Source of the DNA: a virus
Direction: 5' to 3' (one strand)
IMG/VR virus record: IMGVR_UViG_3300045988_153046
Length of the DNA stretch: 58,315 bases
The position numbers and the translations under genes were made by a program. Positions 1 to 58,315 of this stretch are shown here, one piece after another (the first letter of the stretch is position 1; every line of letters begins with the position of its first letter). The notes under the pieces were generated by a model, which was given only the letters and a program-made list of their open reading frames with translations, did not search any database and was not told the DNA's origin.

Positions 1-119
1 GTTTTTTTTTTTTTTGCGCTCTAAAGATACCCCTCAAAAGTGATTAGGTTAAAGCATGAATACAAAGGCAAGGAGGGTTATTTGATGGGCGTTGCTGAGG
101 ATGTATTAGAGTATCTGAA
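1..119. repeat. Terminal redundancy (identical to 58197..58315); unit genome about 58196 bp
   Basis: Base-by-base identity of G+T14+GCGCTCTAAAG...GTATCTGAA at both window ends. Confidence 0.95.
20..50 (+). promoter_or_regulatory. Bipartite motif copy 1 (putative phage-specific promoter or leader element)
   Basis: TCTAAAGA-N12-GTGATTAGGTT directly after the T14 terminator tail; upstream of 85..381. Confidence 0.6.
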
Positions 120-1143: not shown

Positions 1144-1188
1144 AGGAAAGTAAAGGATCAAAGGGAAAAGGTGATCCTTTACTTTCCT
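1144..1188 (+). other. Perfect 17-bp hairpin without a T-run
   Basis: AGGAAAGTAAAGGATCA (1144-1160) pairs with TGATCCTTTACTTTCCT (1172-1188); 11-nt loop. Confidence 0.85.
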
Positions 1189-33304: not shown

Positions 33305-33335
33305 TCTAAAATAATAAGCCTCCTGTGATTAGATT
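33305..33335 (+). promoter_or_regulatory. Bipartite motif copy 4
   Basis: TCTAAAAT-N12-GTGATTAGATT; spacer CCTCCTG is complementary to the RBS CAGGAGG. Confidence 0.6.
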
Positions 33336-33364
33336 ATTTAGACTAATTGCAGGAGGTTATTTTT

Positions 33365-35038
33365 ATGATTAGAGTAGAGAAACTAGAGAAAGGGCTGTAT
33401 TTTGATGATGCCTACAAACTCTCTTTTAGGTACGATCCTATTACTGTAAGCAAGGTAAAAGAGCTTGCTCAGAGAAGATACTTACCAGAGGATAGGGCTT
33501 GGGAGATCCCTAGCTATGAGTTACCTAACTTGATTGATAAGGTGGGGTTGAATAATATTGATGCTGAGGATGCTCTTGTAGGGGCTTTGAAATCAAAAGA
33601 GATAGAGGATAGGAGAGCGGCTACAGAGGAAAGGCTTAGAGGGATAAAGCCTCTGATAGATTTTGATTTTACTACAGAGCCTCTCCCTCATCAGATAGAG
33701 GCTTTTAATTTTGGGCTACAAAAGGATAAAATGCTTATAGGAGATGAGCAAGGCTTAGGAAAAACAAAAGAGAGCATTGATATTACAGTAGCTAGAAAGC
33801 ATGAGTTAGTAAAAACCTTGATTGTATGCGGGGTAAACTCAGTTAAGTATAACTGGGAGCGTGAGATTAAGCTACACTCCAGAGAAAGCTCTGTAATGAT
33901 TGATGGTAAAACAATGGATCTCAGGGTAAAGCAGATTTATGAGTGGTATAAGAGCTCTAGCTATTTTGGGATTATCAATATTGAGAGCCTGAGGAAAGAG
34001 CAGATACAGGATGCTCTTTTTGATGGTATCAGAGATGGCTATATTGGGGCTGTAATTGTGGATGAGATCCATAAGGCTAAAAATGGCAGTAGCCAGCAAG
34101 GGAAAGCTCTTAGAACACTAAAAACGCCTATAAGATTGGGGCTCTCAGGTACTCCCATGAATAAGGCGGAGGATCTCTGGAATATTCTCACATGGCTAGG
34201 GGTTGAAAATCGTCCTTTTTACAGGTTTAGATCTACTTACTGTGTTATGGGTGGATATGGCGGGTATAAGGTGGTAGGGCATAAAAATCTTGAAAGCCTT
34301 AATGCAGAGCTTAATACTGTGATGCTGAGGCGTAAAAAGGGTGAGGTGCTGGATTTGCCGCCTAAGATCCATAGTACAGAATATGTAGAGCTCACTAAGA
34401 AACAGCAAATTATGTACAGGGATATTAAGAATGGGATCATAGCAGATCTTGAGAATATTCTTACCAGCGTAAATCCGCTTAGCTGTACTTTGAGGCTCAG
34501 ACAGCTTACAGGAGGGTTATTTACTGAGGAAAATCCTAAGCTGGAGAGGCTTATGGATATGTTATCTGAGGAAATTATCCCTAATGGTTATAAGGCTCTT
34601 ATATTTTCTCAGTGGGAGAAAATCACTGAGGTATATTATGAGGCGTTGAAAGAGTATAATCCCGCCTATATTGTAGGCAAGGTATCCCCTGAGGATAGAG
34701 AGGCTGAAAAAGAGCATTTTCAGAATGATCCAGAGTGTAAGCTAGCTATTGGTACTATCGGTGCTATGGGTACTGGATTTACTCTCACTAAGGCTAGTTA
34801 TGTTTTCTTTATAGATAAGGCATGGGTTAGCGGAGATAATGCTCAGGCTGAGGATAGAGCACACAGAATAGGTACAGAGGATACAGTAAATGTTATCTCT
34901 TTGGTGGCTAAAGGTACTATAGATGAGGGAATTGAGGAGTATCTGATTGAAAATCAAGATCTCTTTGATCGCGTAGTAGATGGTAAAGGCTCTAAGCACG
35001 ATATTAGGCAAGTGCTTAATAATCTCTTGAAAATATAG
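33365..35038 (+). CDS. SNF2-family helicase
   Basis: DEQGLGKT, DEIHKAKN, SGTPM, QAEDRAHRIG motifs. Confidence 0.9.
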   Translation: MIRVEKLEKGLYFDDAYKLSFRYDPITVSKVKELAQRRYLPEDRAWEIPSYELPNLIDKVGLNNIDAEDALVGALKSKEIEDRRAATEERLRGIKPLIDFDFTTEPLPHQIEAFNFGLQKDKMLIGDEQGLGKTKESIDITVARKHELVKTLIVCGVNSVKYNWEREIKLHSRESSVMIDGKTMDLRVKQIYEWYKSSSYFGIINIESLRKEQIQDALFDGIRDGYIGAVIVDEIHKAKNGSSQQGKALRTLKTPIRLGLSGTPMNKAEDLWNILTWLGVENRPFYRFRSTYCVMGGYGGYKVVGHKNLESLNAELNTVMLRRKKGEVLDLPPKIHSTEYVELTKKQQIMYRDIKNGIIADLENILTSVNPLSCTLRLRQLTGGLFTEENPKLERLMDMLSEEIIPNGYKALIFSQWEKITEVYYEALKEYNPAYIVGKVSPEDREAEKEHFQNDPECKLAIGTIGAMGTGFTLTKASYVFFIDKAWVSGDNAQAEDRAHRIGTEDTVNVISLVAKGTIDEGIEEYLIENQDLFDRVVDGKGSKHDIRQVLNNLLKI

Positions 35039-35375: not shown

Positions 35376-35406
35376 TCTAAAAAATCCTCCCCTTAGTGAT
35401 TATGAT
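35376..35406 (+). promoter_or_regulatory. Bipartite motif copy 5
   Basis: TCTAAAAA-N12-GTGATTATGAT. Confidence 0.55.
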
Positions 35407-35455
35407 TGTTTAGCTCTAAGGTGTTACAGAGTATTTTATTTTAGGGGGTAAAAGT

Positions 35456-35767
35456 ATGGTAAAGATTAGTTTTACTAATGCTCAGGTAAGGGATAGCGGC
35501 TACGGACTTCAAGTAAACGGAGAAAGTCTGGCTGATATTATCTCTATGGCTCTGGGCGCAAAGGTTAAAGGCGTAAACTATGGAGATCCAGACTATGACA
35601 AGATTAAGCCCTTTGAGAGCAATTCTTGTGATGTATCGGTGGTTATCTACCCTCATCCTCAGGGTGTACAAATTGAGGATGATAGTAATGTGTACAATAG
35701 TCTTGAGGAGCTGGAGGAGGATCTTAATGAGCGGATTAAGCAGGAAATTACAGAGGCAAAAAGCTAA
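35456..35767 (+). CDS. Hypothetical protein
   Basis: ATG after AGGGGG; acidic 103 aa. Confidence 0.5.
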   Translation: MVKISFTNAQVRDSGYGLQVNGESLADIISMALGAKVKGVNYGDPDYDKIKPFESNSCDVSVVIYPHPQGVQIEDDSNVYNSLEELEEDLNERIKQEITEAKS

Positions 35768-39235: not shown

Positions 39236-39266
39236 TCTAAAAGTAGCCTCTTTTCCTGATTAGATT
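39236..39266 (+). promoter_or_regulatory. Bipartite motif copy 7
   Basis: TCTAAAAG-N12-CTGATTAGATT; the spacer forms a 13-bp stem with the RBS region. Confidence 0.6.
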
Positions 39267-39294
39267 TGAGTATCACAGGAAAGGAGGCTTTTTA

Positions 39295-39783
39295 ATGAGC
39301 ACATTGAGTAGTAAAGCGGTAGCTGAAATGTTAGGTAAGCGGCATGATAACTTTATGAGAAATCTGAGGAGTTATGCGGCTACGCTTGGAGAGAGTGCGT
39401 CTGAGTATCTTATTGAGAGTACCTACAAAGACGGAAAAGGAAAGGTAAGAGCTGGGTATGAGATTACCCTTAAAGGCTGTGATTTGATTGCTGGTAGGAT
39501 TATTGGGGCTAAGAGTGATGAATTTAGAGAAAAGTATAAGCCCTTATTTTCTGAGGGTGAGGGCTCTGAGCCTGTAAAAGAGCGTTGTACCCCTCAGGAG
39601 GTGCATGGTTATACTACTGAGGAGGCGGCTAAGGTATTGGGCTGTAGCCGCCGTACTGTACAGAGAATGATCCAGCGGGGGGAGTTGGCTACTCAAGAGG
39701 TTACTGTGTTAGTGCCTACGGTTAAAACTCTTATAATCCCTGAGGAGTTGGATAGATACCAGAAAGAGAGGGCGGCTGTATGA
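39295..39783 (+). CDS. Rha-like regulatory protein with a C-terminal excisionase-type HTH
   Basis: N-terminus SSKAVAEMLGKRHDNFMRNL; C-terminus YTTEEAAKVLGCSRRTVQRMIQRGEL. Confidence 0.6.
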   Translation: MSTLSSKAVAEMLGKRHDNFMRNLRSYAATLGESASEYLIESTYKDGKGKVRAGYEITLKGCDLIAGRIIGAKSDEFREKYKPLFSEGEGSEPVKERCTPQEVHGYTTEEAAKVLGCSRRTVQRMIQRGELATQEVTVLVPTVKTLIIPEELDRYQKERAAV

Positions 39784-40430: not shown

Positions 40431-40829
40431 TTACTTAGCGATCTTGATAGCTATGGTTGCTAACAGGTGCTTGTCCTCCTCTGAAAGCTTGAGATAAAGC
40501 CTAAGGAATTGCACTAGCTCACTATCTGTACCTAACCTCTGCTGTAGCTCTGAGAGCTCTTTGTTGGGGAGGCTCTCAGGAGAGAAGTTAAAGAAGTGTT
40601 CTATGGGAGCATTAAGGTAAGTAGCTAGCCGCTGTAATCGCTCCATATCAGGGAGATGCCTACCAGTATTCCATGCTGAGATGGTAGTAGGTGGTATCTC
40701 AAGAGCATCAGCAATATCTTTATTGCTTTTTTTCCTTAGGGCTTTGTAGTAAGCCATTGCCCTAGAAAAGCTCTCATTGAGGGGGGATTTGTTAGACACG
40801 TTTTCACCTCCTCTCTTTGAGGCATACAA
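40431..40829 (-). CDS. XRE/CI-like repressor (only credible minus-strand gene)
   Basis: KKSNKDIADALEIPPTTISAWNTGRHLPDMERLQRLATYL; GGAGG RBS on the minus strand; divergent from a consensus promoter. Confidence 0.8.
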   Translation of the reverse strand: MYASKRGGENVSNKSPLNESFSRAMAYYKALRKKSNKDIADALEIPPTTISAWNTGRHLPDMERLQRLATYLNAPIEHFFNFSPESLPNKELSELQQRLGTDSELVQFLRLYLKLSEEDKHLLATIAIKIAK

Positions 40830-40901
40830 GTATTATACAGTTAAACAAGCGTTTTGTAAAGTCCGAACATCAAAAAAGTTAGTTAAACTGTATTTATGCT
40901 A

Positions 40902-40930
40902 TTGACAGGCGGTTAAGCGAGTGATATAAT
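40902..40930 (+). promoter_or_regulatory. Consensus sigma-A promoter (early rightward)
   Basis: TTGACA-N17-TATAAT with a TG extended -10. Confidence 0.8.
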
Positions 40931-42463: not shown

Positions 42464-43060
42464 ATGAACACAGGAAAAAGGACAAATGAGGAATTGGTAA
42501 TAGTTTATAGGATTACCAGAGATGAGAGTTATTTAGCAGAGCTCATAAAGCAGAACAGGGGGCTCTTGTATATGATTGTTGAGCCGTTTGTACATAGTAT
42601 CCCTAATGCAGAGCTTGAGGATCTTACCAGTGAGGCTTATATCCCCATGCTGAGGGCTATTGAGGATTTTGATGAGGCTAGGGGGCTTACCTTTGCTAAT
42701 CTGCTTAAGGTGTATGTGCGCCAGCATTTGAGCCGCCTTTACAATGAGGCTACACGCCAGAAACGCTATAACGGATCTACCAGTGTTGGCTATGAAAGCC
42801 TTACAGAGATCAATAGAGAGGGTGGATCTGAGGGAGACAGCTATTTTACTGTAGATTGTGAGGATTTTAACTCTGTAGAGTTTATGCAGTTTATCAATTC
42901 CTTAGAGCTGAATGAGAAAGAGACGGTAGCTGTAAATGTACTCATGGCTGGAGGTACTAAGGGTGAGGTGGCAAAAGCTCTTAAGTGTACTCCAGCTACG
43001 GCAAATTATTATTTCAAACAGATTAGGAGAAAGTTTGTTTTGGCGGGTTATGCGCTCTAA
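42464..43060 (+). CDS. Phage-encoded sigma-70-family factor (regions 2 and 4)
   Basis: Region-2-like DLTSEAYIPMLRAIEDFDEARGLTFANLLKVYVRQHL; region-4 HTH GTKGEVAKALKCTPATANYYFKQIRRKF. Confidence 0.75.
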   Translation: MNTGKRTNEELVIVYRITRDESYLAELIKQNRGLLYMIVEPFVHSIPNAELEDLTSEAYIPMLRAIEDFDEARGLTFANLLKVYVRQHLSRLYNEATRQKRYNGSTSVGYESLTEINREGGSEGDSYFTVDCEDFNSVEFMQFINSLELNEKETVAVNVLMAGGTKGEVAKALKCTPATANYYFKQIRRKFVLAGYAL

Positions 43061-43086
43061 AAAATGCCCTACTTTCTGATTAAGTT
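43056..43086 (+). promoter_or_regulatory. Bipartite motif copy 8 (overlaps the sigma gene stop codon)
   Basis: TCTAAAAA-N12-CTGATTAAGTT. Confidence 0.55.
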
Positions 43087-43980: not shown

Positions 43981-44046
43981 CAGGTAGTACAGGATGGTAG
44001 GGAGGTTAGAGATAGCCTCCCTACTGCTATAAAGGAGGTAAATTCT

Positions 44047-46253: not shown

Positions 46254-46880
46254 GTGGAAATAGCCAGCAAGAGGGAAAGAGGAGATAAGCCTGATGGTGA
46301 GTTTGATTATGGCTGTGCTTGCTATAGTGGGGCTTTGGAGGCGTTTGAGGTGCTCTGTAATCAGGGGCATAGTGGTATGAGTATTGGCTTTACAAAACAG
46401 ATCCTTAACAGGTTGATAGATGGAAAACCTCTTACTCCCATTGAAGATACTGAGGATGTATGGAATTTAACACATAGAGAGGGAAAGATTAAACATTATC
46501 AGTGTAGCCGCATGAGTAGCTTGTTTAAGGATGTATCAGAGGATGGCAAGATTACTTATTCAGATGTTAATAGAGTATGCGGGGTTGATTGTAATTCTGG
46601 GGCTACATATCACTCAGGGTTAGTAAGTAGGGTGGTTAATGAAATGTACCCTATCCAGATGCCCTATATTCCAAAATCTCCTTATAGAGTGTTTTGTGAG
46701 GATTTTCTAACTGATAAGAAAAATGGAGATTTTGATACGGTTGGTATTTTTTATTTAATTGATCCTGATGGGGAGAGAGTGGAAATAAACCGATTTTTTA
46801 AGGAGAGTAGCTTAGGGTTTTCGGAGATCTCTAAAGATGAGTATATGGAAAGAAAGAGTAATAGAATAGCGTTAAAGTAG
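46254..46880 (+). CDS. Hypothetical protein
   Basis: Long ORF on the coding strand; GTG start uncertain. Confidence 0.5.
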   Translation: MEIASKRERGDKPDGEFDYGCACYSGALEAFEVLCNQGHSGMSIGFTKQILNRLIDGKPLTPIEDTEDVWNLTHREGKIKHYQCSRMSSLFKDVSEDGKITYSDVNRVCGVDCNSGATYHSGLVSRVVNEMYPIQMPYIPKSPYRVFCEDFLTDKKNGDFDTVGIFYLIDPDGERVEINRFFKESSLGFSEISKDEYMERKSNRIALK

Positions 46881-46911
46881 TCTAAAATGAGCCTCCCTTT
46901 GTGATTAAGAT
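46881..46911 (+). promoter_or_regulatory. Bipartite motif copy 9
   Basis: TCTAAAAT-N12-GTGATTAAGAT; the spacer forms a perfect 12-bp stem with the methylase RBS. Confidence 0.6.
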
Positions 46912-46937
46912 CGGTAAACACAAAGGGAGGTATAGTT

Positions 46938-47492
46938 TTGAAAGTAGACATTTTTAGAACGGATAAAAAATACGGCGTGATTTATGCAGATCCAGCATGG
47001 ACTTACAGAGATAAAGCCCTTGCGGGTAATCGTGGAGCGGGTTGCAAATATCCTGTTATGAGTTTAGAGGATATTTGTAGATTGCCTGTAAAAGATCTGG
47101 CGGCGGATGATTGTGTATTGTTTTTGTGGGTTACTATGCCTAAGCTAAATGAGGCTTTTGATGTAATGAAAGCGTGGGGGTTTGAGTACAAAACTTGCGC
47201 TTTTACATGGGTTAAGCAAAACAGAAAATCAGATCGCCTTTTTTGGGGTATGGGGAGGTGGACTAGAGCTAATGCGGAGTTGTGCCTGTTAGGTACTAAG
47301 GGAAAACCTAAAAGAGAGGATGCTGGGGTACATAGTGTTATTATTTCTCATGTTGAGGAGCATAGCAAAAAGCCAGCAGAAACAAGAGATCGCATTGTAA
47401 GGCTATTAGGTGCGGGGGAGGGCATACAAAAGATAGAGCTTTTTGCAAGGCAGACAGTAGAGGGCTGGGATTGCTGGGGGAATGAGGTATAG
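46938..47492 (+). CDS. MT-A70-family N6-adenine DNA methyltransferase
   Basis: VIYADPAWTY (DPPW motif), EHSKKP; TTG start after AAGGGAGG. Confidence 0.88.
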   Translation: MKVDIFRTDKKYGVIYADPAWTYRDKALAGNRGAGCKYPVMSLEDICRLPVKDLAADDCVLFLWVTMPKLNEAFDVMKAWGFEYKTCAFTWVKQNRKSDRLFWGMGRWTRANAELCLLGTKGKPKREDAGVHSVIISHVEEHSKKPAETRDRIVRLLGAGEGIQKIELFARQTVEGWDCWGNEV

Positions 47493-47777: not shown

Positions 47778-47810
47778 TAGAGGAGGGGCTGTAGAGGCTC
47801 CTCTTTCTTT

Positions 47811-47841
47811 TCTAAAAATCTGGGCGGTATCTGATTAGGTT
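47811..47841 (+). promoter_or_regulatory. Bipartite motif copy 10
   Basis: TCTAAAAA-N12-CTGATTAGGTT after a terminator-like hairpin. Confidence 0.6.
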
Positions 47842-52723: not shown

Positions 52724-52754
52724 TCTAAAAAAACTCTCTTTAAGTGATTAGGTT
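52724..52754 (+). promoter_or_regulatory. Bipartite motif copy 11
   Basis: TCTAAAAA-N12-GTGATTAGGTT; a 15-bp stem links it to the RBS. Confidence 0.6.
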
Positions 52755-52781
52755 GTTTATCACTTAAGGGGAGGGATATGA

Positions 52782-53535
52782 GTGCCTACAACAATGAGTA
52801 TTGAGGAAATGCGTAAGCATGAATGGGTTGTTAGTTGGAGCGGAGGCAAAGATAGTACAGCTACTATTATTTTATGTCATAAATACGGCATACCGATTAA
52901 AAGGATTGTGTATGTTAGCATGATGTATGATGAAAAGCTCCCCGCTACTTTGCCTATTATGACAGAGTTTGTAGATAGAGCTAAAGAAGTGTTTGAGAAT
53001 TGGGGGTATCCTGTAGATATAATTGAGGGTGTATATACAGCTAAAGATTTTATCAATAAGGTTTATTTCAAGTCAAAGTATGAGTATAAAAACGGTAAAC
53101 CTTATGGGGTAAGTGCTTTTTGTAGAGCCGCTTGTAAGTTTACAGGAGTTAAATCTGCTACAATTAGGAAATCCCTAGAGGGCTCTAGCTATTATGAGAT
53201 GTTAGGTTATGCTTGTGATGAGGATGAGCGGCTTGATCGCTTGACAGAGACTAAGCAATCTATCATGGTTACTTTGGGGGGTTAAAGAAACTGATACTTT
53301 TTCTATTTGCGAAAATTATAATCTACTTTCTCCGCTGTATGGTTTAGGGTTTAGTGGGGATGGGTGTTGGTTTTGTCCTAATGCGGCAAAAGCTGAGAGA
53401 GCCTACATCAGAGACAATTATCCAGATCTTATAGCGGAGATTTTGTGGATGATTGAAATGTGTGGGTATGATGTATCCTCAATAGCTCATAGAAATCACT
53501 GGGTAGAGGATTATTATAAAGGAAAGCTCAAATAA
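52782..53535 (+). pseudogene. PAPS-reductase-family (PP-loop) protein split by a 1-nt frameshift in a G6 run
   Basis: SWSGGKDST PP-loop. The ORF stops at 53283-85, but the +1 frame continues VKETDTFSICENYNLLSPLY...GCWFCPNA to TAA 53533-35. G5 instead of G6 (53276-81) would fuse them. Confidence 0.8.
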
Positions 53536-58175: not shown

Positions 58176-58211
58176 AGAGAGGGTAACTCCTCTCTTGTTT
58201 TTTTTTTTTTT
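58176..58211 (+). terminator. Strong rho-independent terminator
   Basis: AGAGAGG / CCTCTCT stem followed by T14. Confidence 0.85.
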
Positions 58212-58315
58212 GCGCTCTAAAGATACCCCTCAAAAGTGATTAGGTTAAAGCATGAATACAAAGGCAAGGAGGGTTATTTGATGGGCGTTGCTGAGGATGT
58301 ATTAGAGTATCTGAA
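58197..58315. repeat. Terminal redundancy (copy of 1..119)
   Basis: Exact identity with the window start. Confidence 0.95.
58216..58246 (+). promoter_or_regulatory. Bipartite motif copy 1 repeated within the terminal redundancy
   Basis: Same sequence as 20..50. Confidence 0.6.

What the first reader, a model, noticed from the sequence alone, without database searches (positions are those of the whole stretch)
46892..46930. Motif spacer forms a perfect 12-bp stem that buries the methyltransferase RBS
CCTCCCTTTGTG (46892-46903; the motif spacer plus the GTG of the right box) is the exact reverse complement of CACAAAGGGAGG (46919-46930). That segment contains the AAGGGAGG RBS of the MT-A70 gene (TTG 46938). 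A transcript that includes the spacer would have this RBS sequestered. A transcript starting downstream of the right box would not. This could couple translation to promoter choice, or it could be a leader riboregulator with a conserved AUUAAGAU loop start.
Basis: partly seen in the sequence, partly recalled or inferred. Interest (0 to 1): 0.75.

Follow-up and report, generated by a model that had tools for sequence, protein, structure and literature searches.

The report
Phage promoter nested inside RBS-masking hairpin
The stem is real and conserved: it wraps a phage sigma-factor promoter so that RNA arriving from upstream has the methylase ribosome site masked (and is probably terminated), while RNA started at the promoter itself is free. 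This is a compact version of a trick known from phage T4, and it is reused at many genes in a group of uncultured gut phages.

Summary
G46891-G46903 pairs with C46919-U46931 (13 bp; -25.2 kcal/mol, z -6.6) and buries the AAGGGAGG Shine-Dalgarno sequence. An outer A/U helix also covers the UUG start codon.

The stem is selected. Across 7 orthologous methylase sites, 92% of cells pair and 11 of 16 pairs change on both sides.

The "motif" is a strictly spaced bipartite box, TCTAAA-N14-(G/C)TGATTAnnnT. It occurs 12 times in the window, always on the + strand just upstream of a gene. It is also found in at least 119 IMG/VR stretches, where it co-occurs with a phage sigma-70-family gene (window 42464-43060). 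I read it as that sigma factor's promoter, with the predicted start site in the loop.

So upstream-initiated RNA has the ribosome site masked, and promoter-initiated RNA does not (SD unpaired probability 0.00 against 0.94). This works like T4 genes e, soc, 49 and I-TevI.

Strong hairpins of this family occur where no upstream terminator exists, and they carry a T-run between SD and start codon (39% against 2.6% baseline). They therefore probably also act as intrinsic terminators.

The "riboregulator with conserved loop" idea is not supported: the loop is the promoter's -10-like box. Verdict: a new variant of a known kind, of moderate interest.

The parts
46881..46886 (+). Left box TCTAAA of the promoter-like motif. 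It begins directly after the TAG stop (46878-46880) of the upstream gene.
46887..46900 (+). 14-nt spacer ATGAGCCTCCCTTT, pyrimidine-rich and anti-SD; it supplies most of the 5' arm.
   Evidence: CCTC/CTCC occurs in 53% of 68 unique spacers against 6% background. Spacing is always 14 (296 against 0).
46901..46911 (+). Right box GTGATTAAGAT (family pattern xTGaTTAnnnT, which contains a TAnnnT -10-like hexamer at 46906-46911). Its first 3 nt close the stem and the rest lies in the loop.
46891..46903 (+). 5' arm of the hairpin (GCCUCCCUUUGUG).
46904..46918 (+). 15-nt loop. It holds the -10-like box and the predicted transcription start (about 46916-46919; inferred, not mapped).
   Evidence: inference from sigma-70-family geometry
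46919..46931 (+). 3' arm (CACAAAGGGAGGU), containing the Shine-Dalgarno AAGGGAGG at 46923-46930.
46932..46940 (+). U-rich tail AUAGUUUUG (5 U in the first 8 nt), which overlaps the UUG start codon at 46938-46940. It pairs with UAAAAU 46883-46888 in long RNA. Orthologs have uninterrupted T4-5 runs here.
46938..47492 (+). MT-A70 DNA methyltransferase gene (TTG start), the gene controlled.
46254..46880 (+). Upstream co-directional gene (Tad3-like). Its transcript would run into the hairpin.
42464..43060 (+). Phage sigma-70-family factor (regions 2 and 4), the presumed reader of the motif. Its stop codon overlaps the left box of motif site 43056.
   Evidence: Pfam Sigma70_r2 5.5e-6; PHROG 351 2.6e-15; TIGR02937 4e-8; co-occurrence with the motif
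40902..40930 (+). Perfect host-type promoter TTGACA-17-TATAAT with TG, upstream of the operon 41045..primase..sigma. It is a source of early, motif-independent transcripts.
43056..43086 (+). The next motif site upstream of the finding. It heads the unit SSB-PolA-Tad3-like, which ends at the hairpin.
33305..33367 (+). Sister site of the same class: spacer AAGCCUCCUGUGAU pairs with AUUGCAGGAGGUU, then AUUUUUAUG (SNF2 helicase gene).
39236..39297 (+). Sister site of the same class: GCCUCUUUUCCUG pairs with CAGGAAAGGAGGC, then UUUUUAAUG (Rha-like regulator gene).
52724..52784 (+). Sister site with a 15-bp SD-masking stem, but with a canonical terminator upstream and no U-run.
47811..47841 (+). Sister site of the other class: a canonical terminator (47780-47806 plus T-run) abuts the left box, and only a 5-6 bp CUGAU/AUCAG stem is present.

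Best explanation
The hairpin is one half of a composite terminator/promoter/ribosome-site module about 60 nt long.

The DNA between the stop codon of the upstream gene and the methylase start carries a promoter for the phage's own sigma-70-family factor. Its parts are TCTAAA at 46881-46886, a fixed 14-nt spacer, and GTGATTAAGAT at 46901-46911 with a TAnnnT -10-like hexamer.

The spacer is written as an anti-Shine-Dalgarno sequence. RNA that enters from upstream therefore folds a 13-bp stem that masks the SD, plus an outer A/U helix that masks the UUG start codon. Such RNA would come from the early host-type promoter at 40902 or from the motif promoter at 43056. It is not translated into methylase. 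With the U-rich tail, part of it probably terminates there.

RNA begun at the nested promoter starts in the loop (about 46916-46919). It lacks the 5' arm, has a leader of about 20 nt with a free SD, and is translated. The methylase is thereby insulated from upstream transcription and depends on its own sigma-dependent promoter.

Shown here: the stem, its covariation, the motif family, the sigma gene and their co-occurrence.
Inferred: the start site, the sigma-motif pairing, and the block to translation and to transcription.
For: - **Stem.** It is real and exceptionally stable.
- **Compensatory evolution at 7 orthologous sites.** 92% of cells pair, 11/16 pairs change on both sides, 0/500 shuffles reach this, and slid controls give 47-67%.
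- **Family-wide specific pairing.** Over 85 unique sites, each spacer pairs better with its own downstream region (-13.66 kcal/mol) than with permuted partners (-11.59 +/- 0.25; 0/5000). Composition-shuffled spacers give -8.8. Anti-SD tetramers occur in 53% of spacers against 6% background.
- **The motif behaves like a promoter.**
  - There are 12 sites on the + strand and none on the - strand, each just upstream of an SD.
  - The median distance from the right box to the start codon is 29 nt.
  - Spacing is exactly 14 in 296 instances and never any other value from 11 to 18.
  - TA...T is invariant in the right box.
  - Canonical terminators abut many left boxes.
  - The motif is absent from bacterial genomes except in a few Clostridia/Lachnospiraceae MAGs, two of whose motif loci (L123, L130) also encode the sigma homolog.
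- **Sigma gene.** The window encodes a sigma-70-family protein. Homologs lie in more than 30 motif-bearing loci. A perfect host-type promoter precedes its operon.
- **Predicted effect.** The SD unpaired probability is 0.00 in long RNA and 0.94 in RNA from the predicted start.
- **Terminator component.** Duplex strength correlates with a T-run between SD and start (rho -0.64, p 3e-12). Stronger duplexes also go with shorter T-runs just upstream of the left box, i.e. with no abutting upstream terminator (rho +0.35 between duplex energy and upstream T-run, p 6e-4). A T-run of 4 or more occurs in 39% of motif genes against 2.6% of 547 other genes.
- **Precedent.** T4 e, soc, 49 and I-TevI work this way (PMC3014915, PMC2988022).
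Against: - No transcript ends are known. The start site, and even the assignment of the motif to this sigma factor, are inferences.
- The left box does not resemble a -35 hexamer. The distance from box to hexamer is 19 nt, and the TG lies 2 nt rather than 1 nt before the hexamer.
- The upstream unit is probably driven by the same kind of promoter (43056). 'Promoter choice' then gives insulation of dosage rather than an obvious temporal switch, unless early transcripts from 40902 read through.
- As a terminator, this copy is imperfect. The loop is 15 nt, too long for the scan's 3-8 nt criterion, and the tail is interrupted (AUAGUUUU).
- Much of the pairing energy is generic anti-SD:SD complementarity.
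- The right-arm register in alignment A2 was set by hand from the pairing, which favours pairing.
- Sites within the family are related by descent, so the p-values are optimistic.
Confidence: 0.6

Rival explanations
1. It is purely an intrinsic terminator. The hairpin exists only to end the upstream SSB-PolA-Tad3-like transcription unit. The promoter and SD lie inside it because the intergenic space is only 57 nt, so masking of the SD is a geometric by-product with no regulatory weight.
For: - A T-run between SD and start codon is tightly linked to strong hairpins (rho -0.64) and is rare elsewhere (2.6%).
- Strong hairpins sit where no separate upstream terminator exists.
- Orthologs have T4-5 directly after the stem.
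- Read on the minus strand, the stem is followed by ATTTTTAGA, like a bidirectional terminator.
Against: - Site 52724 and its ortholog in L045 keep a 15-bp SD-masking stem, although they have a canonical terminator upstream and no U-run.
- Several sites with upstream terminators still have anti-SD spacers.
- The window's own tail is interrupted and its loop is 15 nt.
- The T-run could instead be selected to pair with the A-run of the left box and cover the start codon.
Confidence: 0.2
2. It is a DNA-level element. The inverted repeat extrudes or melts as a hairpin and presents the -10-like box as single-stranded DNA to help the phage sigma holoenzyme, as with N4 virion RNA polymerase hairpin promoters.
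For: The -10-like box always lies in the loop. A short GTGAT...ATCAC repeat flanks it at many sites.
Against: - Many sites with full motif scores have almost no stem, so a hairpin is not needed for the motif.
- The 3' arm is always the SD, and G-U wobble pairs (which are mismatches in the complementary DNA strand) are used in compensation. Both point to RNA.
- N4 promoter hairpins have 5-7 bp stems and 3-nt loops (own knowledge).
Confidence: 0.06
3. It is a leader riboregulator or protein-binding operator. The methylase mRNA starts upstream, and a ligand, small RNA or protein that recognises the conserved loop opens or closes the stem.
For: The loop sequence is conserved and the SD is masked.
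Against: - The loop is conserved equally at sites without stems, and it has a fixed 14-nt distance to TCTAAA, which is typical of a bipartite DNA site.
- No Rfam match.
- The motif often follows a terminator directly, so little RNA would arrive from upstream.
- There is no room for an aptamer in 57 nt.
Confidence: 0.04
4. It is a 3'-end stabiliser or processing site (for example an RNase III target) for the upstream mRNA, unrelated to methylase expression.
For: It is a stable stem directly after a stop codon. Another hairpin without a U-tract lies between the SSB and PolA genes at 43997-44024.
Against: - A 13-15 bp stem is short for RNase III (own knowledge).
- The systematic use of the next gene's SD as the 3' arm, and the fixed register with the motif, are not explained.
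Confidence: 0.05

Closest known systems
Phage T4 genes e, soc, 49, I-TevI/II/III, segB and Aeh1 mobE: an RBS-sequestering hairpin with a late promoter inside it
   Same: The SD and/or start codon is paired on long transcripts that read in from upstream. A promoter for a phage-directed holoenzyme sits so that its transcripts lack the 5' arm and are translated (PMC3014915, PMC2988022).
   Different: - Here the 5' arm is the spacer between two promoter boxes, and the -10-like box is the loop.
- The promoter is bipartite and is probably read by a phage sigma with regions 2 and 4. It is not the T4 TATAAATA/gp55 type.
- Many copies add a U-run in the SD-to-start spacer, so the same stem looks like an intrinsic terminator.
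- Hairpins of varying strength occur at most of the phage's 12 such promoters (the strongest at 33305, 39236, 46881 and 52724) and across a clade of uncultured phages.
- Nothing has been tested experimentally.
Rho-independent (intrinsic) terminators of Firmicutes
   Same: A G+C-containing stem followed by a U-rich tract and preceded by an A-run, placed at the end of a transcription unit.
   Different: - The loop of 10-17 nt has to hold a -10 box.
- The 3' arm is the next gene's SD, and the U-tract is the SD-to-start spacer.
- In the window copy the tail is interrupted.
Phage-encoded sigma factors with their own promoter consensus (SPO1 gp28 and gp33/34, phiEco32/7-11 sigma, T4 gp55)
   Same: A small sigma-70-family protein is made from an early host-type promoter and redirects host RNA polymerase to a distinct, highly conserved phage promoter.
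   Different: - No detectable sequence relative among 50,697 GenBank phage records.
- The consensus TCTAAAAAT-N10-TGTGATTAGGTTA-n-GTATCA is, as far as I could find, undescribed (one search found nothing relevant).

Membership tests
T4-type 'promoter inside an RBS-masking hairpin' translational insulation | The SD and/or start codon is base-paired in the long transcript. | tested here: met
   The 13-bp stem covers AAGGGAGG, and the outer helix covers UUG. The SD unpaired probability is 0.00.
T4-type 'promoter inside an RBS-masking hairpin' translational insulation | A promoter lies within the hairpin, so that its transcripts lack the 5' arm. | tested here: inconclusive
   The promoter-like motif is placed exactly so, and the predicted short RNA has a free SD (0.94). 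No start site has been mapped.
T4-type 'promoter inside an RBS-masking hairpin' translational insulation | Transcripts from upstream promoters reach the hairpin. | tested here: inconclusive
   Promoters lie at 40902 (host type) and 43056 (motif). Only weak terminator-like matches lie between 43060 and 46880, and the hairpin at 43997-44024 has no U-tract. There are no RNA data.
T4-type 'promoter inside an RBS-masking hairpin' translational insulation | Translation of long transcripts is repressed and is relieved by breaking the stem. | not testable with these tools
   This needs reporter fusions or toeprinting.
Intrinsic (Rho-independent) terminator | A stable G+C-containing stem. | tested here: met
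   13 bp, of which 7 are G-C; -25 kcal/mol.
Intrinsic (Rho-independent) terminator | A short loop (3-8 nt). | tested here: not met
   The loop is 15 nt (7 nt if the 3 predicted inner A-U pairs form). The scan did not list it.
Intrinsic (Rho-independent) terminator | A U-tract directly 3' of the stem. | tested here: inconclusive
   - Window: AUAGUUUU, with 5 U in 8 nt but interrupted.
- Orthologs: T4-5.
- Family: a T-run of 4 or more in 39% against 2.6% baseline, linked to stem strength.
Sigma-70-family (phage sigma-dependent) promoter | Two sequence boxes at a fixed distance, oriented with and just upstream of genes. | tested here: met
   N14 only (296 against 0). 12 sites on the + strand and 0 on the - strand. 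Median of 29 nt to the start codon. The TAnnnT core is kept.
Sigma-70-family (phage sigma-dependent) promoter | The cognate sigma factor is encoded by, and co-distributed with, the motif. | tested here: met
   (sigma regions 2 and 4). (homologs in more than 30 motif loci). (the motif is essentially absent from bacterial genomes; two of the MAG motif loci, L123 and L130, carry the sigma homolog).
Sigma-70-family (phage sigma-dependent) promoter | Initiation by the holoenzyme at a defined start site. | not testable with these tools
   This needs in vitro transcription or 5'-end mapping.
Curated cis-regulatory RNA (riboswitch or leader) families | A match to an Rfam covariance model. | tested here: not met
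   No hit at gathering score in the window. The only hit in the local scan is a chance miRNA match, E 0.067, on the minus strand.

The most novel reading that the evidence does not exclude
A whole phage sigma-factor regulon, conserved across a clade of uncultured gut Clostridia phages, is built from 'self-insulating' promoters. The variable promoter spacer doubles as an anti-Shine-Dalgarno and terminator arm, the -10 box is the hairpin loop, the SD is the 3' arm, and the SD-to-start spacer is the U-tract. Terminator, promoter and ribosome site are thus superimposed in about 60 nt. Every such gene can then be expressed only from its own promoter, and upstream transcription is both stopped and translationally silenced.
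Probability: 0.45. Interest if true: 0.65.

Novelty: new variant of a known kind. Interest (0 to 1): 0.5.

Why it matters
If the model holds, it gives three things.
- A ready-made promoter consensus and cognate sigma factor for a widespread, uncultured group of human-gut Clostridia phages. These could be useful for annotation and as orthogonal parts in Firmicutes.
- A natural example of maximal packing of three signals (terminator, promoter, ribosome site) into one 60-nt element, extending the gene-by-gene T4 paradigm to a regulon-wide design rule.
- A simple, testable rule for which phage genes must never be expressed from read-through RNA. Here these are a DNA methylase, an SNF2 helicase and a Rha-type regulator.

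It does not open a new field, because the underlying logic is known from T4.

Tried and rejected
- **Rfam.** No family matched, either in the whole window or in a permissive local scan.
- **GenBank phages.** The DNA around the site gave only distant methylase matches. The sigma protein gave no match. No annotated relative could be used.
- **Bacterial genomes.** A motif scan gave essentially background (24 hits), apart from two Clostridia/Lachnospiraceae MAGs. I therefore rejected the idea that this is a general host promoter.
- **More distant MT-A70 homologs.** In other phages they have neither motif nor hairpin. The stem belongs to the promoter family, not to the methylase gene.
- **Plain MAFFT alignment of the orthologous leaders (A1).** It was not structure-aware. 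I replaced it with a gapless arm-loop-arm construct (A2). The right-arm register was chosen by hand, which is a bias.
- **Partner-swap test on strong hairpins only.** It is circular, because selection was on native energy. I replaced it with the test on all 85 sites.
- **Protein operator reading of GTGAT...ATCAC.** Rejected because the pairing extends through variable sequence with compensatory and G-U changes. In addition, TATCA stays conserved when the G/C at the first box position changes.
- **Nut-like antitermination site (boxA-like plus hairpin).** Rejected because sites lie after terminators and many have no hairpin.
- **Literature searches** for a described nested terminator/promoter, or for this motif, found nothing relevant.
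- **Not used.** I did not run structure prediction or the large protein searches. They would not change the verdict.

Full report
**1. The observation**

The sequence is as described. CCTCCCTTTGTG at 46892-46903 is the exact reverse complement of CACAAAGGGAGG at 46919-46930. With a terminal G46891-U46931 pair the stem is 13 bp, with a 15-nt loop.

RNAfold of 46881-46945 gives -25.2 kcal/mol, against -9.9 +/- 2.3 for dinucleotide shuffles (z -6.6; 0 of 200 fold as well). An outer helix, UAAAAU 46883-46888 with GUUUUG 46935-46940, additionally pairs the UUG start codon. It is the top-ranked short-range inverted repeat of the whole window (I1).

The downstream ORF 46938-47492 is an MT-A70 methyltransferase (PF05063, 4.8e-31). 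The TTG start is conserved in orthologs.

**2. What the 'motif' is**

The window is a phage genome of about 58.2 kb. Its ends repeat, and nearly all genes are on the + strand.

The boxes flanking the 5' arm recur as TCTAAA-N14-(G/C)TGATTAnnnT. A weight-matrix scan finds 12 distinct sites above 12 bits, all on the + strand, and none on the - strand (best 4.0). Every site lies in an intergenic gap just upstream of a strong SD.

In 596 Gb of bacterial genomes it occurs only at background level, apart from clusters in an uncultured Clostridium MAG and a Lachnospiraceae MAG.

One hundred unique instances give the extended consensus ttTTaTCTAAAAAT-N10-TGTGATTAGGTTA-n-GTATCA. The distance from the right box to the start codon is tight, with a median of 29 nt. 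The box spacing is exactly 14 in 296 instances and never any other value from 11 to 18.

TA...T is invariant within the right box. This is the pattern of a sigma-70-family -10 hexamer (established knowledge).

**3. A cognate sigma factor**

Window 42464-43060 encodes a 198-aa sigma-70-family protein:
- Pfam Sigma70_r2 above the gathering score, plus a C-terminal HTH.
- PHROG 351 'RNA polymerase sigma factor', 2.6e-15.
- TIGR02937 aligned over residues 24-190.
- Weak matches to region 2 of RpoS/SigA in the PDB.

Its operon is preceded by a perfect host-type promoter, TTGACA-17-TATAAT with TG, at 40902-40930. This faces a divergent promoter for an HTH repressor-like gene.

Homologs of the sigma protein (62-85% identity) lie in more than 30 of the motif-bearing loci and in two of the MAG motif loci, L123 and L130. 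The left box of site 43056 overlaps the sigma stop codon, here and in relatives.

I therefore read the motif as the promoter of this phage sigma factor. This is an inference, because no transcript data exist.

**4. The stem is selected**

Seven orthologous methylase leaders (window, L144, L146, L150, L026, L099, L041) keep the pairing with different sequences. Examples are CCGCCUCCUUUUGUG with CGCAAAAGGAGGCGG, AUAGCCUCUUUUUGU with ACAAAAGGAGGCUAU, and AAACCUCCUUUAUGU with ACAUAAAGGAGGUUU.

On a gapless arm-loop-arm alignment:
- 92% of cells pair.
- 11 of 16 pairs change on both sides.
- 0 of 500 shuffles reach the observed values.
- Sliding the partner by 1-3 columns drops pairing to 47-67%.

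The caveat is that I set the right-arm register by hand.

More distant MT-A70 genes in other phages have neither motif nor stem. The stem therefore belongs to the promoter family, not to the methylase gene.

**5. It is a family-wide design**

In the window, sites 33305, 39236, 52724, 10637 and 55444 show the same arrangement with different arm sequences.

Over 85 unique sites:

| Left arm paired with | Mean duplex energy (kcal/mol) |
|---|---|
| Its own downstream region | -13.66 |
| Permuted partners | -11.59 +/- 0.25 (0 of 5000 as low as native) |
| Own downstream region, spacer shuffled | -8.8 |

Anti-SD tetramers occur in 53% of unique spacers, against 6% of same-strand 14-mers.

**6. Two classes, and the terminator reading**

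Sorting the sites by duplex strength separates two classes:
- **Strong hairpins.** They have no terminator upstream, and they carry a run of 4-8 T between the SD and the start codon.
- **Weak hairpins.** A canonical terminator (T6-10) abuts the left box, and there is no T-run after the SD.

Duplex energy correlates with the downstream T-run (rho -0.64, p 3e-12) and with the upstream T-run (rho +0.35, p 6e-4), so stronger duplexes go with shorter upstream T-runs. A T-run of 4 or more in the SD-to-start spacer occurs in 39% of motif genes, against 2.6% of 547 other GGAGG-led genes in the same phages.

So each promoter has a terminator in front of it. The terminator is either separate or wrapped around the promoter.

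Two observations keep the translational reading alive:
- Site 52724 and its ortholog in L045 keep a 15-bp SD-masking stem despite an upstream terminator and no U-run.
- The T-run also pairs with the A-run of the left box and so covers the start codon.

In the window's methylase copy the tail is interrupted (AUAGUUUU) and the loop is 15 nt. This copy is therefore a mediocre terminator by the usual criteria and was not listed by the scan.

**7. Predicted consequence**

With a start 6 nt after the right box, the SD unpaired probability rises from long RNA to promoter-initiated RNA as follows:

| Site | Long RNA | Promoter-initiated RNA |
|---|---|---|
| 46881 | 0.00 | 0.94 |
| 39236 | 0.00 | 0.72 |
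| 33305 | 0.00 | 0.38 |
| 20 | 0.20 | 0.77 |

Upstream RNA can come from the motif promoter at 43056 and from the early promoter at 40902. Only weak terminator-like matches lie between them and the hairpin.

**8. Comparison with what is known**

The logic is that of T4 genes e, soc, 49, I-TevI/II/III, segB and Aeh1 mobE. There, early read-through transcripts carry a hairpin over the ribosome site, and a late promoter within it makes translatable RNA (PMC3014915, PMC2988022).

The differences here:
- The 5' arm is the spacer of a bipartite promoter, and the -10-like box is the loop.
- A U-tract is superimposed on the SD-to-start spacer.
- The arrangement recurs across a regulon and across a clade.
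- The sigma factor has no relative among GenBank phage records.

No Rfam family matches.

**9. Verdict**

The most likely function is insulation of the methylase gene from upstream transcription: SD and start-codon masking, probably together with termination. Expression then comes from a nested promoter that depends on the phage sigma factor. My confidence in this is about 0.6.

This is a new variant of a known kind, of moderate interest (0.5). The decisive tests are 5'/3'-end mapping, in vitro transcription with the phage sigma factor, and arm-mutant and compensatory reporters.

Noticed in passing
window 46254-46880 (+): The gene directly upstream of the hairpin matches Pfam PF25185, Tad3 (type I Thoeris inhibitor), 9.2e-28 over residues 12-115, and PHROG 24386. 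It is a candidate anti-defence gene sitting next to the methylase.
   Followed up: no
window 40832-40930: Back-to-back consensus host-type promoters (TTGACA-17-TATAAT with TG on the + strand; TTTACA-17-TATAAT on the - strand). They lie between an HTH repressor-like gene (40431-40829, - strand) and the operon that ends with the sigma gene. This looks like a lysis/lysogeny-type switch controlling sigma production.
   Followed up: partly
window 42464-43060 (+): The phage sigma-70-family factor has no tblastn match in 50,697 GenBank phage records, yet it is common in IMG/VR gut contigs. Its stop codon overlaps the left box of the next promoter.
   Followed up: partly
window 1-119 and 58197-58315: The window ends are identical, indicating a circular or terminally redundant assembly. 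They include a T15 run and motif site 20/58216.
   Followed up: partly
window 43997-44024 (+): A 12-bp hairpin, GTAGGGAGGTTA/TAGCCTCCCTAC, lies between the SSB-like gene and the PolA gene. It has no U-tract and sits just upstream of the PolA SD. Its role is unknown.
   Followed up: no
window 1144-1188 (+): A perfect 17-bp inverted repeat with an 11-nt loop lies directly after the SLT-domain gene 378-1142 (I3).
   Followed up: no
window 35376-35458 (+): This motif site has an unusually long leader (about 50 nt from the right box to the ATG at 35456) with an internal hairpin. The leader is conserved in L073, and the spacer CCUCCCCU can pair with the distant SD UAGGGGG.
   Followed up: no
loci L123, L127, L143 (Lachnospiraceae MAG) and L122, L130, L136, L141 (uncultured Clostridium MAG): These were the only bacterial assemblies with several exact motif copies. 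L123 and L130 also carry the sigma homolog, which suggests prophages or binned phage contigs and a Clostridia host.
   Followed up: partly
class-A sites, e.g. window 33305-33367, 39236-39297 and 46881-46940, read on the minus strand: On the opposite strand the same stem is followed by ATTTTTAGA, the complement of the left box. These elements therefore look like bidirectional terminators.
   Followed up: no
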